DNA from: Antedon mediterranea
Taxonomy: Eukaryota; Animalia; Echinodermata
Direction of reading: 5' to 3'
Length of the DNA stretch: 64,000 nucleotides
Assembly (NCBI RefSeq): GCF_964355755.1
Contig: NC_092671.1
Coordinates: forward strand, 34,358,304 to 34,422,303
Shown: one piece after another, positions 4,451 to 44,152 of the stretch
Position numbering within the stretch: the first letter of the stretch is position 1
How the letters are laid out: the number at the start of each line of letters is the position of its first letter
The notes under the pieces: model-generated
Told to the model about the DNA's origin: nothing
Seen by the model: the letters and a program-made list of their open reading frames with translations, nothing else
The model's database searches: none
Made by a program: the position numbers and the translations under genes

Positions 4451-4933
4451 GGCACTTGCGGTGCAGCAGACAATTAGTCTGTCGTTACCCATTTAGTATT
4501 GTATGAACACAACTTGTTCATTTGGCATTAATTTTGAGTGGTACCTCACTCAGCTATGCTATCACCATTTGTAGGCCCTCCCTCGGGGGGTCTGGTGGGC
4601 CTATTGCAGAGGACAAAATGTTTGGTGATATGATATTGGTATATAGGATGCAAATGGGCATCCCATGGTGGTGAAATTAGGTGGTATCTCTCTCATCTAA
4701 TTGGTGCCGATTTGTTAGCACCTTTCGTGTCCCCCGGTATAGACGCAGCAGGGGGTACCCGGCAGACTTCCATTTACATTGACTTCAAGTGACCGCCAAT
4801 TAACACACTTAAATAGTCAGATATTGGTACCTAGCTCATCTAACCAAATGTATCTGGGCTGCCTGTCTACAGCCATTTACTGAGTATTCAGTACAGTAAT
4901 ACAATAAATACTAAGTGGTCAGAAGATGCTACT

Positions 4934-8400: not shown

Positions 8401-8558
8401 GGTTATCATCACTTAGCTTACTGATGTTTATTATTTCTAAAGATTCATTTCCCACCTGAATATTAGAGATTGGAAAGGTGTATATACGTAAATAGCTAAA
8501 TTCATGGTGACAAATGTATGCAAAGATTAAACCTTGCATTACTTTGTACTATTTACAG

Positions 8559-20358: not shown

Positions 20359-21420
20359 TTATGGATGTCGCCTGTGGTTTATAGACTTATTCTTGAGAAA
20401 CGGGCTCTGTTTAAAAAAGCTCGTAGAGTAAGCAGTACTTTGGCTTGGAATAAATACAAATGTATACGAAATAAAGTACGCAACGCGTCTAAGAAAGCAT
20501 ACAGTGACTCCATTTACCAATCTGTTTAGAAAGAAAGATAACCGGAAGTCATTTTGGTCTTTTATAAAAAGCAAGCGAAATTCATCTCAACTCATTGACT
20601 CCTTGTGGTTAATGGCATTACCATAAGACACCCTACTCAAATCGCCAACGAGTTCAACAAGTTGTTTGTGAGTTTTTTTACTGACTCCCCTAATTATAAC
20701 CTTGACCTTTTAGTATCGTGTGCACGCGCAAAAAAACATCGAACATCGACTTATAACTATACGTACATAATAGTAAGCCAACAACCACACAGTAGAAGCA
20801 ACAATGATATAACATGGCCTTGGCCTTGAAGTATCGTGCACGCGCGCAGCAAATAACAAATATCGTCTTGAACTATTACGTTCATTAAACAAACGAGTTA
20901 ACGTGCAAATATCGCGCGCATGAGCAGCAAATTATAATAATCCAACGCGCTAACCACGACCCTAACAGACGTATCGTGAACAAACAATTATTGAAACAAC
21001 TCAATACAATCATGATATAATGTAGTACCTCGATCAAAATTGTTTGAGTCTAGCATTAAATTTGATCTGATTTATTTTTTTACATTTGTGGCCGAAAAAT
21101 TCTCATTTTTTTTTTACATTTGTGGGCGTTATCACATTTGTGGGCGATGATCGTTTTCACATTTGTGGGCGCTGTTTATTACATTTGTGGTTGATGCGTT
21201 TTCACATTTGTGGGTGATGCGTTTTCACATTTGTGGTTGTTTTCACATTTGTGGGTGATGCGTTTTCACATTTGTGGTTGTTTTCACATTTGTGGGCGTT
21301 TTTACATTTGTGGGTTCAACAGCCTCACTTCACCAACTTTGGACATTCCATCTCTTGCCGGTTTTCGTGTTTCACGTTGTCAGGTGGAATCTTTTATCAA
21401 AAACTTCGCAGCTAATAAAG
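20359..21420 (+). mobile_element. CR1-type LINE ORF2 fragment (pre-RT region), interrupted; continues at 44073-44156
   Basis: Reads LFKKARR...WNKYKCIRNKV...KSFWSFIKSKR...IANEFNKLFVSFFT and FRVSRCQVESFIKNFAANK, then resumes after the giant transposon as ASDPDGVSVRMLKLACPVIIPAITHIF. Confidence 0.8.
21080..21320. repeat. Subterminal ACATTTGTGG repeat array of an inserted DNA element (insert about 20700-21320)
   Basis: About 10 copies of (C/T)ACATTTGTGG at 18-33 bp spacing, ending GGGTTCAACA (rc TGTTGAACCC). The insert interrupts the CR1 ORF. Confidence 0.6.
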
Positions 21421-22836
21421 CACCCGATTCTGTAACTGTTACCATGTATATATATGGTTCACCGTTGCGCAGTTGTCAAGCATGTACATGGATACTGTCT
21501 GTCATTGGTCACCAGTGACGAAAGTTATCAAGTACATGCATGATGATATTGCTCTTGTTGCATGTTGTTATAATACAATCGCATTAGAGCGCTGCTGACG
21601 TCAGACAGCTACCAGTTAGCAGACGGATTTTGTGTACGGAGTTTATGTAATGTTAAATTTTTTTTTAAATATTTACACAACAAATTCAAAATTCCACGTT
21701 TACATTTTTAATTTATATATCTAGTATATTTTTTTGTTAAAGGATCACATTTTTATAGGTAAAAAAAGTGACGTAAAATAGTTCGTGGCAGGTGGGGGCT
21801 TAGCCTGCTGCGTCACACACTCTCTTGGCCCAACTAGGCCTGAATTTGAAGGGTGCTGGTCAATTCGTACCAGAACCAACTACTACCCATTTAATTGCCA
21901 ACCCGGCGAATTCGGGCGTCGTACCCAAATGTTAGGTCTTACTTTGGCTAGCATAGGCTATCCCCCACCCGCTAATTACAAGCCGCCTAGGCCTGGAAGT
22001 ACAGTATCTAGGCTAGTAGTAGGGGATAGTAGGCTAGGCCAGGGCTAATACTCTAGCTAGGGGAGGTCCCTCTGGACATACCCGGCCGCGACAGTAGGCA
22101 TAGTGGTGTGGGTACTTTCGTTGCCATTTTCCGGGCGGGGGTGGGGTGTACTATAGTATAGGCATGTTAGGCCAGCTAGCATACCCACTCCATTTCGTAA
22201 TTAATAGTCATACATACCTGCAAAAGACCCACGGCGCGTAAGCAACAATTTCCTAGGTGCGGATGCAATTTCTTCGGTGCCTATTGCAGTTTGAGACCAC
22301 TTGATTCTCATACCATCATACATTGTTTTTTAAATGTTTTAGAATGGCATCGAAGACCTTGCATGATTATTTATTAGACCAAGATGTACAGTATGTATGG
22401 TGCGTCATAACGTTATCTTTTCTATAAATGTTCCAATAAAATAATATTTAGCATGGCACTTAATTACGCTGTTATTTGGTCTTTGCTTCTCCTCCACCCA
22501 CAATCATAAATTATGTTAGCATTAACTTATTGGTTGCTAAAATAGTAGATAGTAGTACAGTAGTACCAAACTACATGTAACAATTGAGGGAATAAACAGA
22601 AAGAAAGAAGAAAATACCAAACTGCCTGTTCTTGTCATCTTGTATTTTATGTACTCAAATGGCAGAAATAAAAAGTAAGTCATTAAAGTTGCCATTAAAA
22701 AAAAATAAATGTACAGTACCAGTTTAAAAAGATAACTTATGCATATACTTAATAATCAGGGGCGGACGCAGGGATGTTGCCCCAGTTGCCCGGGCAACAC
22801 CCATAATTTCATACTAAATGTTTTTTTCTGCCACTA

Positions 22837-23153
22837 GTGAGTGAGTGGCCGAGCGGTTAAGACAGTGGAACCGTAATCACGTAGCCATAACATCGGCAGG
22901 GGTTCGAGGCTCACTCACTCCATGGTTCTGGTGGTAGAACGAGTCTTCTCGGATAAGGACTATAAACCGTAGGTCCAGTGTACACAACTTGCTCGTGTGC
23001 ACTTTAAAGAACCTAGTACATCTTTGGAGACGAGTAGGGGGTTACCCCGGTGTAGTAGTACATCACAGCCACTGATCACCAACTGGGCCCTCTGGGAGAT
23101 CAGTCTTTGACTGAAGAGGTCACCCAGTATAAAGATAAAACAAACAAATAAAC
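22837..23153 (+). mobile_element. tRNA-derived SINE with Deu/Nin-like core
   Basis: A box TGGCCGAGCGG and B box GGTTCGAGGCT. Core TCGGATAAGGACTATAAACCGTAGGTCC...TTAAAGAACC...GAGTAGGGGGTTACCCCGG resembles the Deu domain. (AAAC)n tail. Confidence 0.8.
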
Positions 23154-24129
23154 TAAAATTTAGATCCCACTTCATCATAGGCATATATTAACCATATTAA
23201 CGTCGTTATAGAAGTCCATTGTTGGAAGTCTATGTAAATTGACTGACTGCAGCGTAAAATTAACCGCGCACAATTAACGACGGTCAGTGGATTTTTTTTT
23301 TCATTTCTCTACGACCGTAAAATTAGGGCGAATTTCCGTAGTAATTTACAAACCTGTGGCGTAAATGCTTGGTTTCTATTATGGCCCTGGACTCTTGGGC
23401 AACCCTCTTAAAATAGTCATGCCACCACCCCTGATAATTACCTATTGGGTCTAGGCTTGTTGTCACCTGGAATTTTGCCACTTGGCCTTTAGCAACCCAA
23501 AATATTGCTACCTGGCCTAAAAATCCAGGTGGCAACGTGCCAGAACCTGACTACTAAATGCAAACTAATGTCGAGAACTTGTGTGTTCAGTTAACTGCAA
23601 ATAGTCTCAACGCAGAAGATCATTGTCTTAATTACTCAGTATTGGTTTATATTTTGATACTTTTTTGTGTGACATTAGTATTGTTATGTTTCGTACACGC
23701 TAAAGACACTACAACAGTACACTGGTACAATAGACACGACTCAGTCAGGTGTGGATTCCAAGTGAACGAGGCATTTATTAACAACAGCCTATTATACTAT
23801 TCTACCCACAATATCAATGCGCGTAGACCAATCACCCATGTCTTAATACACGACAAGTATAATACTGGTAACTGGTTGTAAAGTTAAACATAAAAGACAC
23901 TTTCCCTGCAATTGTTGACGTTTTGTAAAAAATATGCATATACTGTATATTACTTTAAAAAAGTTGTATAGGCCTAGTTGGTAAACAGCGGTAACATACG
24001 AACATCGTACGCTTCAGATCTTCACTGCTTAAAAATGGAAGAAAATTATTGTAATAGGCCAGTATAGTATTTAATTTAACATGAAAAGCAGCTTAAAATA
24101 GATGAAAAAAAAACAAAAAAAATGTAAAT

Positions 24130-27100
24130 TTAAATCCTCAAATGTTCTGGAACATTTGCTTCTGGCTCCCAGGTAAGTTTTTTGAAGCCAACCCACTTTA
24201 CTTGGTACATAAATTGTCCTTTCTTCTTTTTCTTTTTTAATATTTTTTCAAATGCATAAAATCCTGAAAAAAAAAAAGAAGCAATTTTTACAAGCATGAA
24301 AATAAGTTAAACAAACTGTGTCTCCAAAACAATATTTGATTATTATCAGGGTTGTAATTATTATGTCTCTGCATCTTACCTTCTTTCAACTCAGTTTTCT
24401 TACTGGTATGCCCAATCTCCGAACAAATGTTTGCTAAATCTGTATTTTTTTCTGGGAAAAAAAACAGTTAAGCATTAATTGTTAAAAAAACATTTTCTTG
24501 GGGTTCCCTACTCTCTAATTTGAATGTATGTGCTATTGCTACAGTATTTAAAAAATGTATTTGAATTTAATTATGCACAAGGACACTTTATTGAGTAAAA
24601 ACTTAGTCTAGTGTATATTGTTGTGTTAAGGTCAATTAACTGTCAAATAATTTTTTTAATTTTATTTTTTTTAAAGCACTATAACACTGTATTGCTCATA
24701 GGTCATTCCATATCCTGTCACGTCTTTAACACAATTGTATTCATTGTATGTGTTGCTGTTTTAAATTTAAGTAGGTTTGCTAAATGTGTTACTCACCAAA
24801 ATCAATTAAAACTTCGTGAGGCCTAATGGTACCTTCAATTTCAGCTGTGGAAGAATTATGTTCATTGTGAAGAATATCACAAAGAAAAGTAAATACTGTA
24901 TAAACATTTTGATTCACACTAAATACACATTTTTAATGTATCAACAAATATAACATCAAATATCAAGTAAATGATGTTTAACTTACCATCAGCAATAACT
25001 GTTTCATTTTCTGTTACTGTGGATGAATAAATTGCAATAAATTTATATTTTATTCAATGACTATATCATATAATAGACTCGAACACCTTTCTACAACAAA
25101 TTGTTTGGTTGCATTAAATATCAAGTAAATGATGTTTAACTTACCATCAGCAAGAACTGTTTCATTGTCTGTTGCTGTGGATGAATAAATTGCAATAAAT
25201 TATATTGTATTCAATTACTATATCATATAATAGACTCGAACACCTTTCTACAACAAATTGTTTGGTTGCATTAAATATCAAGTAAATGATGTTTAACTTA
25301 CCATCAGCAAGAACAGTTTCATTTTCTGTTACTGTGGATGAATAAATTGCAATAAATTTATATTTTATTCAATGACTATATCATATAATAGACTCGAACA
25401 CCTTTCTACAACAAATTGTTTGGTTGCATTAAATATCAAGTAAATGATGTTTAACTTACCATCAGCAAGAACAGTTTCATTTTCTGTTGCTGTGGATGAA
25501 TAAATTGCAATAAATTATATTGTATTCAATATGCAGATGTAGTTTATAGTGAAATACAGTAGTACTGTTTACCTATATTATTTAAGAAAACAGTTGTGTG
25601 CCTTAATATACTATATATTAACCATGCACAAAATGTTAAATTAGATACTGACTATAGAATTTCAAATTCAAAGATATTGTAGATCTCTTAGATTTAAATA
25701 TCATCCAAAAAACTACTTTCTGTCATGACTGCAGATGATTAATTGACATACACTAGAATTGCAAAATTAATTTTCACAAAACCAAAATCTGAAAGGCCTC
25801 TAAATGTTTATTAATTACTGTAAATGTTCTTAAGCGATTAATGTTTGCTTTTTTTACAAATGGAGGTACAAGTTAGGTGGCATGCTGATTAATGAAGGTA
25901 AACTGTGGTATGAAATAGTTTGATAATTCGAAAGTTGGATATCATTGATGCATGCGACTGTGTGTCAGTCAAATTTTCTGAAACACATTTATTTTAGTTA
26001 AAACTTGCCTTCAAATTTAAGGTGATTGCTCTTTTCAATAATGCTTTCAAGTTCTTGGTAAGTGTACCTTCCTATTGGCTTAAAGCCAATAGGATCGAGG
26101 CCACAAACCCGCCACTTTCCGTTCATCACCTCCTTGTAAGGCACCCTATCTTTCCCTGATGCTTGTTCTGAAAAAACATCCCAGAGTTTAACAATTTAGA
26201 GTGAAGTGTAAATTTGTAATAATGAGTGTACATATAAATTATTAATACAGTAATAGTTTGATAAAAACTCTAGATGATTGGTATAGACATAGGATACTTT
26301 ATTTGTCAAAAATGTAATATTTTTTAAAAGATAAGATGTTAAAATACATTTAAAATTCTTGTAAGAAAATATTAAAATACATTAAATTAAATATGAAAAT
26401 TGCAATATTCAAAATACTGTGGATATCGCATTAATAATATAAAATAATTTAAAATACGTTTGACTTTGATAACATTTTTGATTCAAAACATCCTTTATTT
26501 TTAAAAATTGTGAACTTACTGAATTTGTTATTTAACAGCTCCTGCACTTCTCGTCTGAGCTTTTTCTTCTTATTTACTTGTGTTGCATTTGGACCTGTAT
26601 GGATTAAAATCAGATTGTAAGCATAAATATAAATCATGTTTTTACAGTATGTACTTGGACTACTGTGTTTAACACCATTCATTAATATATGATATAATAT
26701 AAGTGTCAGATCAGAGTGTACTGTATTTAATAAAGCAGTCATGTTACAATTATTATTTAAAAAATCTTTTTGTATTTAACATTCTGTGTTTCATCAATTA
26801 TTTAGGTAAGTTGAATATCTTGGTTGAAGTTATTTATTCTCATTATTTTATATACCCGTAGATATATAATTATTTTACTTACCATTACTAAACGATAAGA
26901 ACTTGGTTGTAAGCTGCTCCCGCTCCATGAAATAATTACCCTCCTCTGACCCAAAGGAGAATATTGTGTCGTTGTTTGGATGCAAAATAACAGCAATACA
27001 CTGGCATCCAAGGTTCACCATTTCTTGTATCTATGTACATTGTCATAAATATAATTATTGTTGGTAATTAGTACACAAAAGAACAGAAATACACATGTCT

Positions 27101-29147
27101 CGACTGGCCTTATTAACTGTACAAAAGATAATAAAAATAAAACATTTACTATGAAAAATATAAAGTAAAATCAATATTACACTATCTATAATTAGATAAA
27201 AAAAAAAATTATAGCAAATTTAAAATTTCTTGATTAGCAACATTTCATTATAAAACGTATGCATGGTTTGATTTTTCCGTTGTAAATCTGCTACAATGCT
27301 TACTTTTGTCAAATTTATGATGAAAGAGGTAATTTTAATTAAAATAATATTAATTTTTTTCCAATTTTAAAGTCTTTATATAAAACTATATTTAAAATGT
27401 TGTAAAAATGGTGCAGTCAATTCTAAATAAGTTTAACTTGCATTGAAAGAAGTTACACATTTTCAATTTATTGTATATAAACTTGATTTTTGCATCAAAT
27501 TTAAGTTTGTTATCGATTTGATCATCTAAATGCTTGTATGTTTTAACTTCTGATAACCTTTAATTGGGGAAGCAAGTACTTATATTAAAAAGCCAAGCAA
27601 TGCACATTGCAGGAAAATTAATTTTACTAACTTTCTTTTCAATTTCCTTGGTTTTTCGTGCTATTGCAATTTTATTCTGGCCTTCTGTCATTTGCGATGG
27701 TGTTGTTGGCAGTGGCAAAGCCAGTCTTGCCCGTTCTTCATAACTGGCAGATTCATTGGACTGTTTTAGTTCCTGCCACTTTTTTAGGCCACTCACACGA
27801 CAATCGGTATAAGTTCTGCCTTTGTCGAGTTCTAATGAAATACATAAAATATATTAATTTGATATAATATAAGTTTAAACTTTTACGGGTATATCATGGG
27901 ATTTTATCTGGCTCTTTTCTATTGTATGTCCATTTCATGTATGTACAGTATTTTGCCAAATCAAATCATACTATTACAATCTATATTCACCTTCCTTTAT
28001 GTGTTCAGACATGAACAGCTGGTGGCCCGTTTGTTTTCTTATTCTTAACTTTTCCTTGCAAGGACGTTTTTTTCCGGACAATTTTTTTTTGTAGTTGCCA
28101 ATCCAATCCTATAAGAACATAATATAATATATAGTATTAATTGTTTTCCTTTTGTTCTATTTCAAATTCTAATAATAATCGTTATACTCTATACAAAAAA
28201 CTAGATACAGCTTGAATATATTATTACAAAACAAACTCAATATTTTATAAACAATTGTAATATATTTTTTTTTATAAAAGTGGAACACACAGATCACCGA
28301 TTCACCAAACTAAATCAAAGGCCTTTTGGATGAGTTTTGAGCTTTTGGCATGAGTGTTGGTGATTATGTTTGTTGAAACTACAATCATTTTAAAACAATC
28401 AGTAGCAATAAAAAAATAAAAATTACTTATTTAACCTCTCTATTAAGCATTCCAGAAAAACGATCAACAATAAAAAAAAGCATTTATAGACATAAATGGC
28501 ATTAATAATATGATTAAGAGACATATTACATTATAATTATCCTACTTACTTTTACCTGTTCTTCCAACAAACCAGTTTTTTCAACTGCTTTTGCTAGTAA
28601 CACCTTCTGTCTGTCACTCCTATAACTTGACATACCCTTCTCATATAAAGCAATGAGAACCGATTTGTTTTTATCTCCAATTTGCCTTCGGCTTCGCTTA
28701 GTACACCTAGACCTAGGCAGAAGGTAGAAGTAGTAGTGTATACACTTTAATTAAAAGAATGCCTAGCTAGGCCTAGTAAGTAGTATTAATATAACCATGG
28801 AGTAAAGATTACTCCAGGCATGATATAACTATTTTTTACAAATATATAAATATAAGGCCTAGGCTAGGTCTACATTGAAAATTGTTCATAATAATAATAT
28901 AGTGTTTGTCATCAATTCAAGATGACATAGGCCTAGGCTACACTACAACACGTGCTGCTGCTTTATAGATTGTGTCACAGTGTATTTTAATAGAGCATTT
29001 TTAGGGTGTAAAATGAATGGTCGTTTTTATGTATAAATGTCTGAGCCTTGACTCTATAAATAGATAGTACTAGGCCTAGGGCCTAGCCTATGCTATGATT
29101 ATCTAGGCTAGTAGGCCTAGCGATACCTACCTTTCAATCTCATTCAT
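24130..29147 (-). CDS. Transposon accessory protein: homeodomain-like + HMG-box-like + C-terminal chromodomain, about 417 aa, 14 exons
   Basis: Exons 29147-29131, 28712-28550, 28108-27991, 27831-27632, 27030-26883, 26594-26520, 26167-26009 (GC donor), four 30-nt exons, 24844-24797, 24451-24380, 24263-24130. They total 1254 nt with no internal stop. Motifs KTGLLEEQVKDWIGNYKKK; RKQTGHQLFMSE...KKWQELK...YEERA; YAFEKILKKKKKKGQFMYQVKWVGFKKLTWEPEANV. Confidence 0.85.
24950..25530 (-). repeat. Tandem 157-158 bp repeat, each unit carrying a 30-nt coding micro-exon
   Basis: Exons 25489-25460, 25331-25302, 25174-25145 and 25016-24987, each CCACAG|(A/V)T(E/D)NETV(L/I)AD|GTAAGT. Confidence 0.85.
28796..28822. 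mobile_element. P-like excision footprint
   Basis: CATGGAGTAAAGATTACTCCA(GGC)ATG flanked by the 7-bp direct repeat ATATAAC. Confidence 0.6.
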
Positions 29148-29527
29148 TGAAAAACAAGGTGATGTGTATAATAAGTGTAAAAATCTGTAAAATTCGTAGA
29201 AAATAATTATTCTGTACTAAAGTAACTCTTGTGTGTGGTAGCTGTTTGTGTAACAATTGTTTAACTGGGTGTTTAGTGGCTTCTCTCAGAGTGCTGAAGT
29301 GACGGCAGATAAAGATATAGGGCCTAGGCGCGCCAGGTGTAAGATATCATCCTCCTGTCATCCATCAATCCATCATCCATCCCCACCGTACCACCCAAGG
29401 CCCATACCATAGTTTTGTAGAGCTAGTGTGTAAAGAGGGCGCTTTCCGAATGACAAGTTTCCAAGTTTCCACCAATTAAATTGTCGCGTTGCGCCCCTAG
29501 CTAGCTAGCATCATGCATGCAGCTTAA

Positions 29528-29811
29528 GCCGATTTTCCACTAGGCGAATTTGTTCGCGCGAATCGAACGCGCCAGCTTGTACGCATGTGTATTCATGTTT
29601 ACGTCTTCCAAATCCTTCTCTACGCATGCGTATTAGCTGACGCCTTCGATTCGCGCGAACAAATTCGCCCAGTGGAAAATCGGCTTAAGCCGATTTTCCA
29701 CTGGGCGAATTTGTTCGCGCGAATCGAAGGCGTCAGCTAATACGCATGCGTAGAGAAGGATTTGGAAGACGTAAACATGAATACACATGCGTACAAGCTG
29801 GCGCGTTCGAT
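29528..29811. mobile_element. Two inverted copies of a ~160-bp MITE forming a palindrome
   Basis: GCCGATTTTCCACT..GCGAATTTGTTCGCGCGAATCGAA TIRs with TTAA flanks. The second, inverted copy starts at 29689 and is cut at about 29811. Confidence 0.8.
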
Positions 29812-29813
29812 AA

Positions 29814-29996
29814 AGCGTGGTTCCCACTAGCGACGCAACACAAGGACGTAACGCAACGCAAGTGAATTGACCAATCACAAGCGATGGCTTATTCGCTTGT
29901 GATTGCTAACTGTCTATAACTAACTTCGCTTGTCATTGGTTAAAACGCTTGCGTTGCGTTTACGTCCTTGCGTTACGTTCTAGTGAGAACCAAGCT
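29814..29996. mobile_element. PIF/Harbinger-like MITE
   Basis: TIR AGCGTGGTTCCCACTAG / CTAGTGAGAACCAAGCT with TAA on both sides; internally palindromic. Confidence 0.7.
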
Positions 29997-30644
29997 TAAG
30001 ATAGATAGATAGATAGATAGCTAGCTAGCTCATCATGGAGGTATCTATTTTTATACCTCCATTGCTAGCTGATGATTCTCCCCAACTGAGATGTATAATA
30101 TTGATATTGTAATTTACTTTTTGGAAATATTTCCTTTTTCATTTTAAATATTTTATCCTTCACAGCACCAAGATTAGAAGAGATGTGCCACGTCAGTATC
30201 AAAGTACATACTGTACTCTTTTTTTATTCGTATTGATGAATTGCCACCCAACCAATAGGCCTACATGGATATTGTAAAATACATCTAACAATAACAGACA
30301 GATCCATCTATCTCTTAGTCTTATAAATAGATGTATCTCAGCTCTCCAAACTACTGCTGCTATAAATTCCCAATTGACAATGACATACTGTGCAGGGGGT
30401 TTGGAAAGGCTTCAATATAATTAGCGATGGCCTACTGCTACTGTACACTGTCAACATTGTCATTAGACAAGAAATGGAGGCACAGTTTATCCACCAGAGG
30501 GCTGGTGCTAATACAATCTATCATCCTCTCACTAGTAATGTATCAACCAGGGCTAGGCCTAGACTATTCCAGTAATTTAAAGGGGTTGCATTTAAATGAA
30601 AATGTTTAAAAAAAGATAACATTTTAGTAATTATTAAAATTAAC

Positions 30645-33600
30645 CCATTTTGTAGATATCAAATTTCATTTGGTATTGATTGTAGGATTTTCACAACTTA
30701 TTTTGCTTGTTCTAGTTGGGCACACTATATTATGTGTTATTGTATATTTTTTACAGAATGAGATGGTCCAGTGTAATATGAGTCAGTTGTTTATTTGTAC
30801 AATATGCAGGAGAGATCTGAGGCTAGAGAAGAACCAGTTTTCTGCTGATACCATTCATTTATATAAACAAACCAATGTTTTCCTAATATTGAACTACAAC
30901 AGACAAAGGAATGATTAACATAAGGGTTTTACAATACATTAGGCTGTATTTTATTGAAAAATCCACTTAAAATTGTTTTTAAAACATCTTCATAATGAAT
31001 GACAACATGATGTAGCCTACTTTTTTACAATCACAAAAGGCATTGGATTTGTGAGACCTAATAATTGAAGAAAAATGTTTATTGGGAATATTTTTTATTA
31101 TAAGGCTAATATTACAAATATGGTGGTATTTAATGTTGCCAAACTATGTATTAGTGTAATGTGTTATAATAAAAATAAATACTATATAAATCACATTAAA
31201 ATAAATAAATACAATATCAAACGCCTGGCACAGAATAAATTCTAAATCGCCTGATACTGAAAATTTGTTAATTAAACTTGATAAGATGAGAAACACTGAC
31301 GAGATCTAATAAGATCGAAACAGTACTGTCTGCAGATTGGATATATACAGTTTAGAATTTGTTTTGAGTTTTATATATAATAAATAATTGAAAAAGCAAA
31401 TGTATTGTACGTATATGAATGTGGGTGTGTAGTGTACATGTACCGTATAGTATGTATTTTATATTAAAGTATACAATGTCCCTACACTGATCCTATATGG
31501 TTTTGGTTGGTCATGCAAATCATCTACAAACCAACTTATACTGTACTAATTATGTTACAGTAAGTAATGTGATGTATTAGGCCTAGTCACGTATTAAAAA
31601 ATCATAATGCATGAAATAATGCTAATATTGTTTGATGAAAAGGTGGGAAAAAGTGTTTAATAACATTGTTATGATATAAATAATAAAAAAATATGATATA
31701 AATATGACCATATTATCTTTATATTGACTATTTTTGATAATCATACCCCTTTAAAGTCATTTGTATTTCAACCTATATTATTTCTTTTGTATTAATATAG
31801 TGTATGTTATGTATTGTTTGTCTTGTTACATTTTGTTAATGTTATGTATTCTTATTATCTGCCTAACCAATATTAGTAATAATAGTTTATATATATATAT
31901 ATGTATATATATATAAACAATTCAGGCAAAGAACATTAATTCTAAACCGCCCGGTGATAAACTGAAATTTTAATTAATTAATTTGAAATATGTATATATT
32001 AATATGTATATATATATATATATATATATAACTTTCTTTCGCAAATAAAATGTATTATAAAAAATCTAATATAAAATGTCAGACCAGCTAAGTATTGCGT
32101 TTCAATTGCATTTTTTTTTTTAGTATAGGCGAATTATATATCTTTTTCTCTAAACAAGTGAATGATACCACATTTAGAATTAAGGTTTCTGTGTATGCAT
32201 TACCAAAATAGTAATTATATTTCAATGCACTTCTGCTTTTTGTTTTAAGATTTTTAAATGATTATTAACTATACATTAAATGGCAGGTTTTTAAAAAAAA
32301 AACGTTTTAAAAGTTAATTGTAGTATTTTGGTCCAGGATGAGGTGAAGTGTGTGTGTGGCACCAGAATTATTTTTTTCTGAAGAAAAGAAGTAAGCAGAT
32401 TCGCTCCAAACAATAGGATTCACATACAAAATCATTATTTTTCCAATATACATAGTATAACAGTATACTTACAGTACATAAGGTAAACTCGAGCAGAAGA
32501 ATAACACACATAAAAACCATATTCATTTTTTCGTCGAAAAGTGCCCTCTCTAGTTTCATATTAATAAATTAACTATTAATAAAAAAATTAATGGGTAATA
32601 TGAACATATTTTAAACATTAATGGTGGAAATTGGCTCTACTCCTAACAAAGCTTCATATCACCGAAATTCAACAACGTAGTCAACGCACTTCAATAAATA
32701 TCACAATTTAACAATCGTAATTTGGGAGGGCTGGATTTTGGTTAAAATCATATACAAAAAACATCGAGAAAAAATATTTTTCGTATTCAAAAACATTTGA
32801 AACTTCGTATATATGTTCAATATAGGTTGCTCTATCCACAGAAAATATTGCATACCCAACAGTAGTTTTTTTATGTTTTTTTTTTCTACAAAACCGTCAT
32901 GAAGTCGGAAAAATGAGTTGGAATTGTATGTACTTTCTTAAGTGCAAATTTTGTAACAACGTAAATTATAAAAATCGATTAAATGACTTGCTATTGATTT
33001 TCTTTTACATTATGGATGAAGTAACCTATATTGAACATATATACCAGGTTTCAAATGTTTTAGAATACGAAAAGTATTTTTTCTCGATGTTTTTTGTATA
33101 TGATTTTTAACCAAAATCCAGCCCTCCCAAATTACGATTGTTAAATTGTGATATTTATTTAAGTGCGTTGACTACGTTGTTGAATTTCGGTGATATGAAG
33201 CTTTGTTAGGAGTAGAGCCAACTTCCACCATTAAATGTTTAAAATATGTTCATATTACCCATTAATTTTTAATTAATAATTAATTTATTAATATGAAACT
33301 AGAGAGGGCACTTTTCGACGAGAAAATGAATATGGTTTTTATGTGTGTTATTCTTCTGCTCGAATTTACCTTATGTACTGTAAGTATACTGTTATACTGT
33401 GTACAGTAGGCCTGTATTGGAAAAACAATGATTTGTGTATCTTCTTGGGATTTGTTTGAAAGCGAATACTACACTTCTTTTCTTCAGAAAACATCTCATT
33501 TTACCAACAAACCCCAACCTCCAACACACCAGACCCTCCTGAAATCTACATAGTACATTATAAGCCAAATTAACCGTTTTAACTTTTTTTTTATTAAAAC

Positions 33601-34725
33601 CAATCTGCCTCAAGAATATATATATTTTTTATAAACAAATCAGGCAAAAGAACAGTAAACCATAATTACAATAATAAATAATAACATAAAGATTGATAGG
33701 AATTGTAAGTAATATTAATGAAATTAAAGTGCATTAGTTTAAAAAATAAAACCAAAAAAACTTAACTACCCTTCATTTGAATAAATCCCCCGGGGCTGTT
33801 TATTCGAGGGAGGGAGAAGGAACGTTTATGCAAAATTATGTTCTTTGGGAGGGGGAGGGGAGGATGGGGTTGTTATATGAAGAAGGCTTTTATTCAAAGC
33901 AGTCAATTAAAAAAAGTTCAGTCATATAAATATAATGTTAACTACTATTTTGGTAATGCATACACATGATAGAATTATGTTCAGAAATCTAAATTCTAAA
34001 TGTGGCATCATTAACTTGTTTAGAGAAAAAAATTATAATTGATGGGCTACACACAAAAAAAATGCAATAAATACTTACAATTATTATTAATATTTGTTAT
34101 ATAGGCAAAAAATATATAAATAATAATACTTAACATTAACACAATTATTTAACAAGTTAAGTACCGGTAATACTGTACATAACACTGAACTATAATACCA
34201 AAGGAATATATGAGTTAAATAAAATACAATGGATTTCAACGGCTATGATTATCCAAACATTTTTTTATATATAAAAATAGCACATTATAGTTCGGCAACA
34301 TTTATTTTTTGGTTAGATAACAAACCGTATTTGGAAATAGGCTATAACAAAAGATGTTGCAGATGTTGTAAAACCAATTTTAAGTGGGGTTTTCAGATAC
34401 ATTACACAAAGACAATTATTGTACTAAATCATGATTTTAATAATGCATTTATTAGTTATCAACCTTGACGTTAATATTAGGAAAACATTGGTTTGTTTAT
34501 ATAAATGATCAATGATATCAGCAGAAAACTGGTTCTTCTCTAGCCTCAGATCATTCCTCCTGCATATTGTATAAATAAACAACTGACTCATAAACACTGG
34601 GCCATCTCATTCTGTAAAAAATATACAATAACACATATAATATTGGGCCCTACTTGAACAAGCAAAATAAGTTCTGAAAATCCTACAATCAATACCGAAT
34701 GAACACAAATCACCAAAATGGATTA
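30645..34725. repeat. About 4.1-kb imperfect inverted repeat (foldback) centred near 32925
   Basis: Arm pairs about 30645-30890/34472-34725, 31700-31870/34080-34260, 32095-32220/33940-34070 and 32370-32830/33020-33490 (innermost near-identical). Confidence 0.85.
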
Positions 34726-35203
34726 ATATTATTAAATTACAAAATATTTCAATGTCAAACTGTTATTGATTAAGCGTAATATTAATACTGGGGTTTTTTT
34801 TATCTACTGTACAAATCAATGTAGAATTGCATTACAACTAAACAATACAAATTTTCAATTTTGTAAAACAAAAAAATGTTTAATCATTGTATGTATACGA
34901 AGAAGTAATGTGTTGTTTAATAAACATTGTTAATAATTTGGTTGAGTATCTAAAAAATAACTTGACAAGCAAAATGCTGTTTGTGAGTTACTGTGATTTT
35001 ACACCAGTGGATTTTATTGCCCAGTGTCATTTGAGCCATATGTTGTAACTACAGTACAAGTCTGACCCATCAAGAGGTTGGTCTAACTGAAATACCTTGA
35101 ATAAGCCTCTTAAGTTTGACCTTGATGACCCTTGAAAGCTACCAAGAATTCCCAATGGTTTAAGCATATTTTAAAAAAGGTTTATAAATGAAGTTACACT
35201 AAG

Positions 35204-35231
35204 CATGGAGGTATAAAATAATACCTCCATG
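35204..35231. mobile_element. P-like excision footprint
   Basis: CATGGAGGTAT...ATACCTCCATG flanked by the 7-bp direct repeat CACTAAG. Confidence 0.7.
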
Positions 35232-36372
35232 CACTAAGCCTACCTACCATAATATAACATTTAATCAAAGAAATTAGAACAATGTAGTATAATTTGGGAT
35301 TTAAATGATGTAAAATAGATGAAGAAAATAAAACTATGAATAGGCAATTTTGATGATTAATAAGTATTCACTTTCAGTTTCTTTAAGGTGATAATTAGGC
35401 AGTGAATTTGTCCATATATTGTACCATAACATTTAATCTAATTACAAGGTTTAAGTAAAGGTGAAAAACTACTGTTATGGCAGAAAAATTGTACCATGTA
35501 AAGAGACAGCCCTACCAACAACAATAAAAATAACTATTCTTAGATTAACAGGTATAATATAAAGCAAATTATAGGCCTCCATTATATATACTTTCAACAT
35601 TTTTTACCACAATCGCTGTAAAAGTATGTTATAGATGAAAATGAAATTAACACTATAAAAATATATAATAATGTTCTTTTGTGTCTCACTCGCTCCTTTT
35701 CTTTCATGTCATTTTTCAAATTAATATTATAAATTATTTGTCATATGCCTACTGTACTGTAAATCATTGGCATCACAATAATCTGAATCATTTGATCTCT
35801 TTCATTTTTTATCAAATAAAAAGATATTGTATTATAAAGCAATTCTAAAAACATATTTTAATAATAATAATATACTGTACTTTATTTTCACATGGAAACA
35901 CTTGAATCACCCAATGGTGTTTTTCATCAAGGCCATACAAGCCCATACATAAGTACAGAAAATTAGCAAAATGAATAAAAGAGAAAAAAATAAACATAAA
36001 GGGTAAACTAAACCCCACCGGACACCAACCCGGTATTTTTAAACAATGTTTCGGGATAACAATTAACACAAAATTTATGTATTTAAACTTAATTTAAAAA
36101 TATTGACATTAGAAATACATTTAAGATTATCTGGAAGGTTATTCCAAAGCTTACTAGCATGAAATGATAGACTTTCAACATTTTTTACGACAAAATCACA
36201 TCAAAAGTATAGTGCTGTAGATGAAAATACAATTAACACTATAAAAATATCATAATGAACATAGAATTACAGTATGAAAAGGTAATATCCATTAATACAC
36301 CCAATAATAAGTATGTAGTAATAATTGCAATGATTATTGTTCCTTTTTAACCTTGTTAAATGTAAAGGCATT

Positions 36373-36620
36373 TGTAAGGAAGAGATGGCAAAAAGAGAGA
36401 TGTTTTTGTTGTCTGTGAAGAAGAAATATTTTGGTAAAACAGACTTTGTAAACAAGTAAATCGTGCAAGCAAAACCATAAAGTATAATGCTTGTAGTAAA
36501 CAAAGTGTTATGTTATACTTTACTATATTTTATTTGAATTTTAAAATTTAGCTATGCAGTATATCATTCAATAAGAAGAGGCAAATCTTAATTAGTGAGG
36601 AGATAACCCTAGACCTAAAG
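36373..36620 (+). repeat. Inverted, multiply deleted copy of the 3' part of the KDZ transposase gene
   Basis: Pieces match the reverse complement of about 38310-38157, 37864-37776 and 37552-37365, in colinear order, including intron sequence. Confidence 0.85.
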
Positions 36621-37068
36621 ACTAACAATAATATGACAACCCATTTATTGATGTTGTATAATATAAATACACGCAATATAAATATATAGAGTACCAAGGT
36701 CCTGTAGGCTTATACTCTTCATACATAATTGCAAAAAATAAGTCGATTCTAATAATTTTAGCATCCCGCTATAAATCCCAACATACATTTCGCGCGGATT
36801 GATATTAATAATAATAATTTACCATAAAACGGACATTTAAAACAAGGAACGACCTGGATTAATGTTTTTAAAGTAATATATATGCATTATTTTTACAAAA
36901 CGTCACAAATTGTAGGGAATGGGTCTTTAAGGAAAAAAAATTATCGCAATAGCCCATATGTTATTATGCTGTTTAGTTTTATTAAAACATGATAAAGCAA
37001 CTTTAAAAAACATTAACCAAACCTGGACGCATGTGCATGACTTGATGTAACACCAATATCTTTACAGG

Positions 37069-40000
37069 TTATTGTATATTATCACTTTCAACTCCATCAG
37101 AGGAACTAGCAATACTTTCAAAATCAGATTCATTCTCTGAATTACTTGTGTCAGAAAGCAGGGATTCTTCACTGCTGGAAGAATATAAGTCTGAATAGAA
37201 TGATTTATTTAATTCAGTCAAGTAGAAAGATGGAAGCATTGGTAAATCTATGTATTCCCTGAACAAATTTGAAAATTGAATAAGATTGTCTTCAATCTTC
37301 ATTAATTCGTTGGTGACTTGGGCAATCTTTCCACAAGATCCTGTTGTTTTAAGTAGTTTTACTTTGATGTCTAGGGCTTCGTGCTTCGCTATACAATGGT
37401 CAATGACCGACTGCATTTCAATCTTTACTAGGGTTATCTCCTCTTCTGCCCTGCTCTTTAAATCATTATTAGTTAAGATTTGTCTCTTCTTATTGAATGA
37501 TATACTGCATAGCTAAATTTTAAAATTCAAATAAAATATAGTAAAGTATAATATAACTAGAAATTACAAATGGATTCTTATTATTACTATTAATTATATA
37601 AAGTAAAATGTGATTTTAATTTTAAAATATTTGGTGTTTACTGTACATAACCATAACCGGTAGTTTATTCTAATTAAGTGATTATTGTTAAACAGTATTT
37701 CAACCTCATATTTACCTCAGATGCTGTTGCATTGTTGTAAAACATTCCATTAGGATCTTTAATATATGCAAATACGACACTTTGTTTACTACAAGCATTA
37801 TACTTGGAAAGTAGGCCCCTTAAGTTTTTGCTTGCACGGTTTACTTGTTTACAAAGTCTGTTTGCCACAGCTTGACCATCTAAATTGTAAAACAAAATTG
37901 TATTTTAATTGTAATACTCATTTTCACCTATATTGTGTAATCTAAATAATAACCCACTGCTCAATCAATAATCAACAAATTCCTTTAAATTTAACTATCT
38001 GAGGTTAAAAAGTAAAATGTTATTTTGGATATTGCACGGTAGTAGAAAAAAAGTAAAGGACCAAAGAAATTATAGGTCAATTAGTACACTTTTCCAACAT
38101 AATCAGCTGACAAATTGGATTTGAGTATAATAAAGTATGTTTGTGTATTATTTCAGTTTTTACCACAATATTTCTTCTTCACAGATAACAAAAACATCCG
38201 TTCTTGTGCGCATGCCTTCATTTTTCCTTTGATGTTTTCGATTTTCTTATTTGACATGGATATTTCAGCAGCTTTGAATTCCATCCCATCACTCTTCCAT
38301 CTCTTCCTTACATTATTCTCCTTCTCCATAGAAGAGACTGCATCCTCCATGCTGAAAGTATAAATTGTAGAGATAATTGAATGATCTTTACTTTTTTATG
38401 TGTCAAACACACTCAATATAATAAACAATACAACATACCTTTTGTATACATCTTGAAATTCTGAATCGGTAGTTGTCATACTTTGCCTAAACAAGAAAAA
38501 TAATTTATTTTGTCTAATTAATTTGGCAACATTTCCAAGATAATTCGAAAATTAAAATAATGTTCCAATCAACTTTTATGCACACACTCACAAACACACA
38601 CTCTTTAAAAAAACTCTTTGACTACTAAAGACTAGGCAATTTTGTGGATTATGCATGAAATACATACTGTACGTTAAAAACAACTTAAAAAAGCATACCT
38701 GAGCTGGGAAAGACTTTTCAGTTTAGATACATATTTTTCTTTCCAATTAGCTGAAAAGATTAACAATTATATATTATACAAACATAATATAATACCTTTA
38801 TTTCTGTTTAGAAACAAATTTAATATTTTTTTTGGTAAAAAACATACAGTACATAAGAGCAATTAAAAAGATTACAATAACATATCCTATATTTAAAGTC
38901 ATACCCTTATCTATCTGGACATTTGAACTCAATGCCATCTTTTCATCCTCCTTCCATTGCTCAATTACTTCAGGTGTAACATCTGTTGAAAACAATATGT
39001 ACACTGTTATGACCATGAAGTAGTCATGTATTTAATTTAGTATTTCATATTAATAAAACAAATAATAATTTCACTAAATAAGTTTTTACCTGTGGCTACA
39101 CTTCCTTTTTGTAAATTCAGCTCCTTTACTGCTTCATTTAACACATTAGATGCCTTTTTAAATTTCTTTAGTAACATGTTACCTGTGTTTGATCAAAAGA
39201 ATCAATAATAAATTAATGCAAAATGTTTTAACATTCTTATGAATTCTTATGAATGTAGAAGTAATATAGTATACATACCAATATTTTGTCGTTTCCGGCC
39301 AGAATAATGTAACAATGCATCCGTCAGCAAGTCAACTCTGTGTGATGGTGCCATTTCCTTGGTAATTTTTGAAAAATTCCGCAGGTATGACCAAAGACGT
39401 TCGATTCCCTCCCCATCAGTAAGACCAAAACCATTCAAACGTCGAGGGTTGTATAATACCTACGTTATAAGAAATTTCTGTTAAAAAATATTTTGTTTTT
39501 TTCTTGTGTTATTGTGTTAATAGATTGGTTGATTTACCTGACATGAACTTTTATGACCATAGCAATGGAAAATAGGTATTGCCATATCAACATTTCTTAA
39601 AAGTTGATCTTGCTTCTTCTGTAAAATGAAAACATACAAATATATTATATACATAGCAATTTTAACAAGGTCAGAGTTATTTAACAAAAATTAGTATAAA
39701 TTGTAAAAATACATGCCCAACTACTATGATCAGAAGATTTGAGTATATCCTGTTGTCTACTTTAAAATTTCATATATTATAATTACATTAACAACAATCA
39801 ATATAAAAAACAACTGACCTTAAGGTGTGATGATAAAACACATGCAATATCATAAGTCAAAAGCAGCCTTTGGTCCTTCACACATGCTTCATTGTACAGC
39901 TTTTGTAGTAGGAGCATCGGGTAGCCAAGTCTAAATAGAAGAAAGTTGTTTAAAATGTAAAGTAACTGAGAAAAGATATATTGAAAATTCTTAATGATTA

Positions 40001-42542: not shown

Positions 42543-42769
42543 ACTAGAAAAAAAAAGATTATTATTAGTTAGACCATGTGAGAAATTTTGGGAGAAAGCA
42601 TAGTGGCATGCTGTTAGATTACTATGATGGGTCATTTTAATATCAGGGCAATAGCCAATACACGTCCATGCAACTCTGGAAATCTCGGAAACAAAAACAG
42701 GCCTCTCATCGCCGATCGGTGTGTTTTTCCAGAAAATTTTCTTCACACTATTATTATTATTATGCAAAC

Positions 42770-43640
42770 CTGGTTACCTAGCTCCTAGCTAGGCCTAGAA
42801 CTTTGGTTAGGCCTACCTAGGCCAACATTTTTGCAGGGTGTTTTTTTTTTTGGGTACGAGTCATCAAAATAAAATGTGGGTACGAGTCAGCTAAAATAAA
42901 ATTGAGGTGCTGGTCTAGGGCTAAGCCTAGCTAGGCTAGCTTATTCCCCCCTACTAGGCCTACGTACGAGTTGGAATGGTCGATGATGATGGGCCGGCCG
43001 GGTACACGGGTTGATCTAGCCTGGCCCTAGGCATGGGCCGGAACCTCTAGGCCTAGTTATAGTATATAAAGTAGGGCCTACTACTACTAGCTACTAGGCT
43101 AGGGCGGCTAGGCCTACTAACTAGCTAGCTAGTAGGCCTAGTGCTATAGTAGGCCTAGTAGTAGGCCCTTCTAGTCTAGCTAGTAGGCTAGGCCTGCCTT
43201 TTAGGCCTACTAGCCTAGGCTTGGCCTAGCTAGCTAGGGCCTACATCCTCAGTCTAGCTAGCCTAACTAGTTAGTCTAGGCCTACTACTAGCTAGTAGGG
43301 CCTATAGCCTACCCTACTCTTCTAGGCGCACCTAGCCTAGACCCCTAGCTAGGCCTAGTTAGGCTAACCCTGTGGCCCCTACCCTAGCCTAGCTAGGCCT
43401 AGCTAGGCTAGAGGCCTACCTAGGCCTAGCTAGGCCTACTAGCCTAGCTAGGGCCTAGGCCCTAGTTTAGGTAGTAGACTACTTCTCCCTAACCGAGTGC
43501 TGGCAGTAAAACACTTACTTTGTAGCCTGACTAGCTAGGCCTGCCTTTATAGCGTATCCAAGGCCCTACACGGTGGTGTATGTAGGCTTGTATTGTAGCT
43601 AGTAAGCAGTAGTAGGCCTAGGCCTAGGCCTAGTGTAGAG
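42770..43640. repeat. Low-complexity CTAG/AGGCCT-rich tract upstream of the transposase
   Basis: Dense irregular TAGGCCTA, CTAG and TAGTAG motifs; similar tracts at about 220-360, 14465-14625, 21945-22060 and 29070-29120. Confidence 0.85.
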
Positions 43641-44152
43641 TAGTAGTAGAGCGTGCCGGAGCGTGCCATGCATCGTGTCCCATCATAGCGACCCCTGCGA
43701 CCACATAGGAAAATTTGCGATAATGCGCATGCTCAAATCACCATAAATATTTGAAATTATTATGACTTTTTGATAACTAAAAAATATATAATTTACTTTA
43801 AAAAAATATATTCTATACTTGCTTAAAATTCAATATTTATAAAGTTTTTAAAAACTATTTTAATAAACTCTTAAAATACATTAGCGTTTATTCACAATGG
43901 CGAAACATCGTCTGCTATTGGTTCTGGACGACTATGTTTAATACACAGGACAAGTATGTACTTAATAACTTTCGTCACTGGTGACCAATGACAGACAGTA
44001 TCCATGTACATGCTTGACAACTGCGCAACGGTGAACCATATATATACATGGTAACAGTTACAGAATCGGGTGAATAAAGCTTCTGATCCTGATGGTGTGA
44101 GTGTTCGGATGCTTAAACTCGCTTGTCCGGTAATTATTCCGGCTATCACACA

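What the first reader, a model, noticed from the sequence alone, without database searches (positions are those of the whole stretch)
24130..29147. Hidden 14-exon transposon cargo gene fusing homeodomain, HMG box and chromodomain
The ORF track shows only scattered fragments of it. Fourteen small exons splice in phase into a stop-free ~417-aa protein: homeodomain-like (TGLLEEQVKDWIGN), HMG-box-like (TGHQLFMSE...KKWQEL...YEERA), a middle domain, an acidic repeat linker and a clear chromodomain (YAFEKIL...YQVKWVGF..TWEPEANV). Known: fungal KDZ elements travel with HMG and TET/JBP genes, and chromodomains steer chromovirus integration. Inference: a DNA-binding, DNA-bending, histone-mark-reading partner that targets insertion or counters silencing. 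I know of no description of this three-domain accessory, so it is the best candidate for a new system here.
Basis: partly seen in the sequence, partly recalled or inferred. Interest (0 to 1): 0.92.

Follow-up and report, generated by a model that had tools for sequence, protein, structure and literature searches.

The report
TFII-I-like helper gene in KDZ transposon
A 22.7-kb jumping gene of a marine animal carries, beside its cut-and-paste enzyme gene, a second gene predicted to be spliced into a protein with several DNA-gripping parts and a histone-mark-reading part that likely helps the element move, and this protein shares two parts with the vertebrate Williams-syndrome transcription factors (TFII-I family), which may descend from such a helper gene.

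Summary
Fourteen minus-strand exons join in frame into 417 aa. A public protein model uses junctions 1-9 identically, and a crinoid homologue aligns end to end, chromodomain included. No RNA reads confirm splicing. (1) The gene lies inside a complete 22,652-bp element with 117-bp terminal inverted repeats, a 7-bp target duplication and an open 877-aa KDZ transposase. (2) The "middle domain" is two domains: a predicted MADS/MEF2-like dimer domain and a TFII-I (GTF2I) repeat, and both match vertebrate GTF2IRD1-type proteins. (3) The family is widespread in animals. In a soft coral, 10 of 18 listed loci have an accession within two numbers of a KDZ transposase (chance about 0.6% each). The chromodomain is optional (14 of 80 homologues). 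Best reading: a heritable helper gene of animal Kyakuja-like KDZ transposons, likely a dimeric DNA-binding and bending partner with a swappable chromatin-reader tail. Its function is untested. Ten literature searches found no description; unchecked notes of this scan report the same family elsewhere.

The parts
21421..44072 (.). Complete KDZ DNA transposon, 22,652 bp, ends CA..TG
21414..21420 (+). Left copy of the 7-bp target-site duplication (AATAAAG)
   Evidence: two random 7-mers of the window are identical with probability 0.0002
44073..44079 (+). Right copy of the 7-bp target-site duplication
21421..21537 (+). Left terminal inverted repeat, 117 bp
   Evidence: one mismatch to the right repeat
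43956..44072 (-). Right terminal inverted repeat, 117 bp
37069..42542 (-). KDZ transposase gene, 16 predicted exons, 877 aa, no internal stop; CxC1/CxC2 cluster and KDZ domain
   Evidence: model; Pfam on exons PF18803 E 1e-6, PF18758 E 6e-9 and 6e-11
24130..29147 (-). Helper gene, 14 predicted exons, 417 aa
29131..29147 (-). Exon 1 (ATG micro-exon, 17 nt)
   Evidence: used by P0001
28550..28712 (-). Exon 2: homeodomain helices 1-2 and start of helix 3
27991..28108 (-). Exon 3: end of homeodomain, start of HMG box
27632..27831 (-). Exon 4: rest of HMG box and long helix of the dimer domain
26883..27030 (-). Exon 5: beta-hairpin and helices of the MADS/MEF2-like dimer domain, homologous to the N-terminus of GTF2IRD1-type proteins
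26520..26594 (-). Exon 6: first helix of the TFII-I repeat
26009..26167 (-). Exon 7: rest of the TFII-I repeat; GC donor
24987..25489 (-). Exons 8-11 (25460-25489, 25302-25331, 25145-25174, 24987-25016): four 30-nt acidic linker exons inside a 158-bp tandem repeat
   Evidence: one contig lacks three units; P0033 has five
24797..24844 (-). Exon 12, linker, least certain
   Evidence: in frame; absent from P0033
24380..24451 (-). Exon 13: helix before the chromodomain, shared with crinoid homologues
24130..24263 (-). Exon 14: chromodomain with three aromatic cage positions (Y376, W397, F400) and stop
   Evidence: Pfam PF00385 E 5e-8; alignment; cage assignment recalled from HP1
36399..36594 (+). 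Inverted, internally deleted copy of pieces from the 3' end of the transposase gene

Best explanation
The gene lies inside an intact 22.7-kb KDZ transposon and belongs to a widespread animal family that likely moves with KDZ transposases as the element's own helper gene; its predicted protein would pair up through a MADS-like domain, would grip and bend the element's ends with its homeodomain, TFII-I repeat and HMG box, and would tether the transposase to marked chromatin through the chromodomain. SHOWN: element ends, both open reading frames, the five domains, many near-identical copies and accession adjacency in a soft coral. PREDICTED: splicing of exons 10-14, the fold, the dimer. INFERRED by analogy (recalled): the division of labour of Harbinger's Myb/SANT protein and CACTA TnpA with their transposases, HMGB-type bending in RAG and Sleeping Beauty complexes, and chromodomain-guided integration of chromoviruses.
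For: Element: 117-bp inverted repeats with one mismatch, 7-bp duplication, both genes open. Linkage: in Dendronephthya gigantea 8 of 12 loci of one helper family, 2 of 5 of a second and 0 of 1 further locus have an accession within two numbers of a listed KDZ protein; chance 0.006 per locus. Helper copies there are about 100% identical within a family and about 40% between families; partner transposases are 94-100% within and 54-56% between. Domains: profile of 36 homologues against PDB gives I-repeats E 5e-21, a homeodomain E 6e-14, TFAM HMG box E 1e-10, HP1/CBX chromodomains E 2e-7. The model (mean pLDDT 84) matches the I-repeat at Z 11.9 (rmsd 5.5, 93 aligned), homeodomains at Z 8.4 (2.8, 60) and HMG boxes at Z 7.7 (3.3, 62). 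Dimer of residues 138-222: score 0.66, best of 3 controls 0.00, runs agree in at least 94% of contacts, pLDDT at least 74; on eukaryotes this mark was reached by 17 of 29 solved dimers and 0 of 30 monomers. Reader tails: full aromatic cage in 12 of 16 aligned homologue chromodomains (read by eye); weak Tudor (P0059) and PHD/CW (P0067) hits in the same place.
Against: No spliced read. The public model P0001 ends before the chromodomain. Only 14 of 80 homologues show a chromodomain (many are partial models), and the KDZ-linked coral proteins scanned show none, so chromatin targeting cannot be the core function. Adjacency is read from accession numbers, not DNA, and comes from one species; no matching numbers appeared among the few Anneissia and Branchiostoma records listed. 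The dimer pass may be from memory of MADS structures: only 1 of 7 eukaryotic dimers without an older solved relative passed. No repeated motif stood out in the terminal repeats; the commonest words near the ends are low-complexity CTAG-type runs. The passages read on mobile Cryptococcus KDZ elements name only a transposase. The anatomy fits a transcription regulator equally well.
Confidence: 0.55

Rival explanations
1. The helper is the element's own transcription or chromatin regulator. It would bind the promoters inside the element, read repressive histone marks and keep the transposase expressed (or limit it), without entering the transposase complex.
For: All five domains are known from transcription or chromatin proteins. 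TFII-I binds promoters and recruits activators or repressors (PMC8155576, passages). Fungal KDZ elements carry TET/JBP genes proposed to counter silencing (PMC12730594, passages). The element holds an inverted copy of transposase sequence that could feed silencing.
Against: No enzyme or activation domain was found beyond an acidic linker whose length varies from one to five units. Helper and transposase families appear to pair up in the coral, which suits a physical partnership, though it suits promoter specificity too.
Confidence: 0.33
2. The gene family is real and KDZ-borne, but this copy makes only the short form (exons 1-10 plus intron read-through, as in P0001), so the chromodomain fusion is not expressed here.
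For: NCBI model P0001. Exons 8-13 are symmetrical and skippable. A paralogue from the same species, P0003, is modelled without a tail.
Against: Donor 10 is identical to donors 8, 9 and 11 and scores in the top 1%. Exons 13-14 are open and match P0002 and P0005 collinearly. P0033 joins repeat, exon 13 and exon 14.
Confidence: 0.15
3. Passive cargo: a host gene captured by this element with no role in its life cycle.
For: Giant KDZ elements of brown algae carry extra genes of unknown function (PMC12477816, passages). Some homologues look host-like or fused to other domains (P0008, P0013, P0019).
Against: The same four-domain core recurs in cnidarians, an annelid, a mollusc, echinoderms, amphioxus and teleosts and sits next to KDZ numbers in two separate coral families. 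No single-copy ortholog pattern was seen.
Confidence: 0.07
4. The gene belongs to a separate 13-kb element nested in the KDZ transposon, bounded by the inverted pair 23893-23961 and 36865-36928.
For: 69-bp inverted pair, 83% identical, flanks the gene and excludes the transposase. The left one is very abundant in reads.
Against: The flanks are not an exact duplication. The arms are much less alike than the outer repeats. The interval contains pieces copied from the KDZ gene. Coral homologues sit beside KDZ genes.
Confidence: 0.05

Closest known systems
Kyakuja elements of the KDZ superfamily (fungi; Kojima 2025, PMC12730594, passages read)
   Same: KDZ transposase, 7-bp target duplication, CA..TG ends, a second gene inside the element.
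   Different: Animal host; 117-bp terminal inverted repeats (the two Laccaria families described have none); the second gene is a five-domain DNA/chromatin binder, not TET/JBP. Placement in the Kyakuja clade was not tested.
Cryptococcus KDZ1-3 (PMC12810828, passages) and giant Ectocarpus KDZ elements (PMC12477816, passages)
   Same: KDZ plus CxC1 transposase, long terminal repeats (139-241 bp in Cryptococcus), large size, nested insertions.
   Different: 4-8 bp duplications in Cryptococcus; no homeodomain, TFII-I or chromodomain helper named in the passages read.
Vertebrate TFII-I family (GTF2I, GTF2IRD1, GTF2IRD2; Pfam PF02946)
   Same: I-repeat preceded by a homologous N-terminal domain: a profile of the middle domain scores 32-39 bits on 3 of 4 multi-repeat proteins, against at most 3.6 on 1000 shuffles.
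   Different: One repeat instead of five or six; extra homeodomain, HMG box and chromodomain; encoded in a mobile element. GTF2IRD2 is known as a transposase-capture fusion (bioRxiv 10.1101/2020.05.07.082677, passage), which is a different event.
HDX, highly divergent homeobox (PDB 2da4; identification of 2da4 as HDX is recalled)
   Same: Best homeodomain match of the family profile, 55.5 bits against 32.3 for the next. NCBI names one coral copy 'highly divergent homeobox-like'.
   Different: HDX is a host gene listed as an orphan without invertebrate orthologs (PMC2211742, passages). No reciprocal search or tree was run.
Two-gene DNA transposons: Harbinger/PIF (Myb/SANT partner; mentioned in PMC12730594) and CACTA TnpA (recalled)
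   Same: Transposase plus a separate DNA-binding protein in one element.
   Different: Unrelated domains and a different transposase superfamily.
HMG-domain genes beside fungal KDZ elements
   Same: HMG box beside KDZ. The HMG-plus-dimer region is nearest to unnamed or HMG-named clusters commonest in Basidiomycota (scores 0.90-0.91, 158-169 of 256 features), a lead only.
   Different: Those clusters are 132-275 aa with no common Pfam family; neither homology nor linkage to KDZ was tested.

Membership tests
KDZ superfamily (element) | KDZ transposase domain PF18758 | tested here: met
   two exons above the cut-off, 36.5 and 43 bits against 26.6
KDZ superfamily (element) | CxC cysteine cluster before the catalytic domain | tested here: met
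   CxC2 28.9 bits (cut-off 27), CxC1 25.4 (cut-off 26.9) on one exon
KDZ superfamily (element) | Defined ends with target-site duplication | tested here: met
KDZ superfamily (element) | Present-day transposition | not testable with these tools
   both frames open and repeats nearly identical; no empty site seen among the loose ends listed
Kyakuja subgroup | 7-bp duplication and CA..TG ends | tested here: met
   against PMC12730594
Kyakuja subgroup | No terminal inverted repeats (as described for two Laccaria families) | tested here: not met
   117-bp repeats
Kyakuja subgroup | Transposase clusters with Kyakuja in a tree | not tested
Zisupton / Dileera | 8-bp duplication | tested here: not met
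   only length 7 matches with the CA..TG ends; an 8-bp reading needs ends offset by one base
TFII-I family (protein) | I-repeat PF02946 | tested here: met
   E 2e-4, 21.9 bits, below the cut-off of 27 for this protein; 60 bits with a family profile built without it; Z 11.9 to 2eje
TFII-I family (protein) | N-terminal ('leucine zipper') domain before the repeats | tested here: met
   profile hits residues 25-99 of P0032, P0037, P0038; none in P0078
TFII-I family (protein) | Several I-repeats in tandem | tested here: not met
   one repeat; a relative of the family, not a member
Homeodomain proteins | Three-helix fold with W48 and N51 in the recognition helix | tested here: met
   Z 8.4, rmsd 2.8, 60 aligned; W62 nearly invariant; numbering recalled; no Pfam hit on this protein itself, 14 of 80 homologues hit
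HMG-box proteins | Three-helix L-shaped HMG fold | tested here: met
   Z 7.7, rmsd 3.3, 62 aligned; family profile to TFAM E 1e-10; this copy is divergent, 18.4 bits to its own family profile; 20 of 80 homologues hit Pfam HMG models
Chromodomain (HP1/Polycomb type) | PF00385 above cut-off and three cage aromatics | tested here: met
Chromodomain (HP1/Polycomb type) | Binds methyl-lysine peptides | not testable with these tools
   needs a binding assay
MADS-box / MEF2 | Helix, beta-hairpin, helix dimer fold | tested here: inconclusive
   Foldseek to MEF2 chains: probability 0.82-0.96 but E 0.4-0.6, rmsd 3.3-4.1 over 65-69 columns; model topology and dimer interface fit
MADS-box / MEF2 | Sequence match to SRF-TF (PF00319) | tested here: not met
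   no hit on P0001 at E 10 or on 80 homologues at E 0.01 among the families shown

The most novel reading that the evidence does not exclude
Animal KDZ transposons carry an ancient, undescribed helper protein (homeodomain, HMG box, MADS-like dimer domain, TFII-I repeat, exchangeable histone-reader tail) that aims integration by reading histone marks. Vertebrates domesticated it twice: the dimer domain plus repeat became the TFII-I/GTF2IRD1 family and the homeodomain became the orphan gene HDX. The TFII-I 'leucine zipper' is then a MADS-fold dimer domain.
Probability: 0.3. Interest if true: 0.9.

Novelty: new variant of a known kind. Interest (0 to 1): 0.72.

Why it matters
It defines a two-gene, 20-kb-class KDZ lineage in animals with an apparently intact copy that can be rebuilt and tested. 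A chromatin-reader partner on a cut-and-paste DNA transposon would give a direct test of mark-guided integration outside retrotransposons. It also offers a concrete origin for two vertebrate transcription-factor families that lack known invertebrate counterparts, TFII-I (Williams-Beuren syndrome) and HDX, and a structural prediction for the TFII-I N-terminal domain. The direction of descent is not shown.

Tried and rejected
No whole genome is held, so copies in this genome could not be counted. RNA: no RNA holder listed; the three runs laid are contigs that cover introns and show no joint at any predicted splice junction; this is no evidence on expression. An empty-site or other-flank junction at the right end was not among the 18 loose ends shown of 565. 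Depth is higher over the terminal-repeat bin (365-440 against mostly 10-95 over the transposase in X2 and X4), but the tool warns this is no copy number. Word-index searches found only P0001. Single exons 2-6 gave no Pfam hit. The alignment-free model was poor (pLDDT 44) and Foldseek found nothing with it. A splice-site scan for a third gene in 21421-23900, 29200-36950 and 42800-44072 gave no convincing exon chain. No tRNA gene in the window and no Rfam match in 21000-45000. A tree of dimer domain plus first repeat (43 of 46 rows; 3 lacked one of the domains) puts the three vertebrate proteins in one branch (100/98), apart from the teleost helper-type proteins, but deep branches are open and there is no root, so it names no donor. 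Read differences are too few for dN/dS: 10 of the 40 listed are exonic, 5 silent and 5 replacing, none a stop; 49 more were not shown. Binding to the transposase was not modelled; the one job went to the dimer. A nested 13-kb element and passive cargo were considered and ranked low.
Full report
OBSERVATION. Fourteen exons join into one open frame. My first model gave 413 aa; moving the exon-13 acceptor 12 nt upstream, to a pyrimidine-rich site also used by the public protein P0033, gives 417 aa with a single terminal stop. Twelve introns are GT-AG and one is GC-AG. Scored with matrices trained on the transposase gene alone, 10 of 13 donors are in the top 2.5% of background, four of them copies of one repeat. 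P0001, which its source labels an Antedon mediterranea (feather star) protein, is identical over residues 1-323 and so uses junctions 1-9, but it then reads into intron 10 and lacks the chromodomain. Exons 8-11 are units of a 158-bp tandem repeat. One contig of run X1 lacks three units and P0033 has five and no exon 12, so exon number varies between copies. No run on record as RNA holds the region and no splice joint was seen. Splicing is therefore predicted, not shown.

THE ELEMENT. Upstream on the same strand lies a 16-exon, 877-aa, stop-free gene with CxC2/CxC1 and KDZ domains. Both genes sit between inverted repeats at 21421-21537 and 43956-44072, 117 bp with one mismatch, ending CA..TG and flanked by a 7-bp direct repeat (chance identity of two 7-mers 0.0002). 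The element is 22,652 bp and lies between two paralogous Roc-COR-death-domain genes. Kojima 2025 gives 7-bp duplications and CA..TG ends for Kyakuja, without terminal repeats in the two families described, and 8 bp for Zisupton and Dileera. I call it Kyakuja-like; no tree was run.

THE PROTEIN. An exhaustive search gave 81 representatives including P0001. Of the other 80, Pfam at E 0.01 shows the GTF2I repeat in 62, an HMG model in 20, a homeodomain model in 14 and a chromodomain in 14; no KDZ or CxC domain appears among the families shown. The closest, P0002 from the crinoid Anneissia japonica, aligns with my model from homeodomain to chromodomain (33%, E 9e-68). A profile of 36 homologues finds, in PDB, eleven entries named as TFII-I-family repeats (best E 5e-21), a homeodomain (2da4, E 6e-14), TFAM HMG boxes (E 1e-10) and HP1/CBX chromodomains (E 2e-7). 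The alignment-based model has mean pLDDT 84 and matches I-repeat, homeodomain and HMG folds. The order is homeodomain (about 11-70), HMG box (82-136), dimer domain (150-214), I-repeat (226-293), acidic linker, chromodomain (376-417). The chromodomain keeps three aromatic cage positions (assignment recalled from HP1), as do 12 of 16 aligned homologues.

THE MIDDLE DOMAIN. Residues 150-214 fold as long helix, beta-hairpin, helices. Foldseek lists MEF2 MADS domains (probability 0.82-0.96, E 0.4-0.6) and the Atlas lists MADS clusters and TFII-I for this region at TM 0.36-0.46, under its bar. A profile built only from helper-type proteins hits the N-terminus of 3 of 4 multi-repeat TFII-I-family proteins at 32-39 bits, against at most 3.6 on 1000 shuffles; one of them, P0037, is elephant-shark GTF2IRD1. 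Two copies of residues 138-222 score 0.66 against 0.00 for the best of three controls, with an interface through the long helix and the first strand. The tool's counts for eukaryotes are 17 of 29 solved dimers and 0 of 30 monomers, but only 1 of 7 dimers with no older solved relative, so likeness to MADS dimers may explain the pass.

DOES IT TRAVEL WITH KDZ? Named homologues come from octocoral, hydrozoan, sea anemone, annelid, scallop, crinoids, sea cucumber, amphioxus and teleosts (20 of the 80 were looked up). In the soft coral Dendronephthya gigantea one cluster spans 12 listed loci (15 of 16 members listed), with near-identical proteins on different contigs. A search with one transposase exon gave 59 KDZ proteins; I listed ten of their clusters, five from this coral, the largest cut at 15 of 19. 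Eight of the 12 helper loci have an accession within two numbers of a listed KDZ accession and 11 within six; in a second family 2 of 5 are consecutive; one further locus is not near any. Chance is 0.006 within two and 0.014 within six. That accession order follows gene order is my inference, supported by equal contig lengths in the listings. No such match appeared for the few Anneissia and Branchiostoma records listed. An earlier unchecked note places a broken relative beside a CACTA transposase, so linkage to KDZ may not be exclusive.

HOW IT LIKELY WORKS. A dimer would carry two homeodomains, two HMG boxes and two I-repeats, suited to holding and bending two element ends, with two reader domains on flexible acidic tethers. 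The tail is exchangeable: chromodomain in 14 of 80, weak Tudor in P0059, weak PHD/CW in P0067, and an unidentified domain in the coral families. That suggests repeated selection for chromatin reading but shows it is not the core. I put 0.55 on a transposase partner with optional targeting, 0.33 on a self-regulator or anti-silencing factor (the two can coexist), and little on passive cargo or a nested element. That the gene is a KDZ-borne helper at all I put above 0.9. No step of the mechanism has been measured.

EVOLUTION. The helper shares both the N-terminal domain and the repeat with vertebrate TFII-I proteins, in the same order. Its homeodomain is closest, among solved structures, to 2da4 (55.5 bits against 32.3 for the next), which I recall as HDX, an orphan in the human homeobox census. 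The tree does not resolve direction: vertebrate sequences form one branch among many, deep nodes are open, there is no root. The wider spread and simpler layout of the helper form favour an element or invertebrate origin, but that is inference.

WHAT IS IN PRINT. Ten full-text searches found no paper describing this helper or a transposon origin for the I-repeat or HDX. I read passages of PMC12730594, PMC12810828, PMC10546077, PMC12062965, PMC2211742, PMC8155576, PMC12477816 and bioRxiv 10.1101/2020.05.07.082677; a term search of PMC10027918 returned no occurrence of six terms; all other papers were seen as listings only. Iyer 2014 is not held, Bohne 2012 was not requested, and Repbase and all supplements were not seen; an annotated second gene could be there. 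The public databases already hold the family as uncharacterised or 'GTF2IRD1-like' proteins. Three unchecked notes of this scan describe the same family in other genomes; they are leads, not support.

VERDICT. Real gene, real element, a helper family not found in print. New variant of a known kind (two-gene DNA transposon; KDZ with accessory gene). Interest 0.72.

Noticed in passing
window 8500-17640 and 48000-64000, + strand: Two tandem paralogous intron-rich genes with Roc, COR and death or DED domains flank the element; the KDZ element sits in the spacer between them.
   Followed up: partly
window 36399-36594: Inverted, deleted copy of pieces of the last three transposase exons (with some intron), about 470 bp past its stop; read-through RNA could fold back on the transposase message.
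   Followed up: partly
window 23893-23961 and 36865-36928: Inverted 69-bp pair, 83% identical; the left one is extremely abundant in reads and the right one starts after TTAA, like ends of a TTAA-targeting miniature element (family assignment recalled, untested).
   Followed up: partly
window 23921-25853: In run X1 this 3' part of the helper gene is covered by unspliced contigs at depth 93-134, lacking three linker repeats and ending in a foreign sequence, while the rest of the gene is at 13 or less: an amplified fragment or an unrelated transcript; unexplained.
   Followed up: no
window 1894-6748: A 4.9-kb element with about 870-bp terminal inverted repeats (98.5%) built from 150-bp and 330-bp subrepeats.
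   Followed up: no
window 29522-29997, 30618-34748, 32374-33491: Nested palindromic or inverted-repeat insertions between the two genes of the element, one a perfect 250-bp palindrome.
   Followed up: no
window 21800-22400: GC-richer, CTAG-rich stretch like those upstream of the two genes, followed by one possible short + strand exon (22343-22399); maybe the remnant of a third gene or promoter.
   Followed up: partly
window 22835-23130: Looks like a tRNA-derived SINE by eye; ARAGORN and Rfam gave no hit.
   Followed up: partly
window 41417-41665: Intron 2 of the transposase contains a short repeat of very high read depth.
   Followed up: no
window 7432-7824, - strand: THAP-domain fragment, E 6e-4, possibly another DNA transposon remnant.
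   Followed up: no
proteins P0008, P0019: Helper-type domains fused to C2H2 zinc-finger arrays; P0008 (crinoid) has four I-repeats, an independent repeat expansion parallel to vertebrate TFII-I.
   Followed up: partly
protein P0010: A sardine homologue is named zgc:113176 by NCBI, suggesting a named teleost gene of this family that may be domesticated.
   Followed up: no
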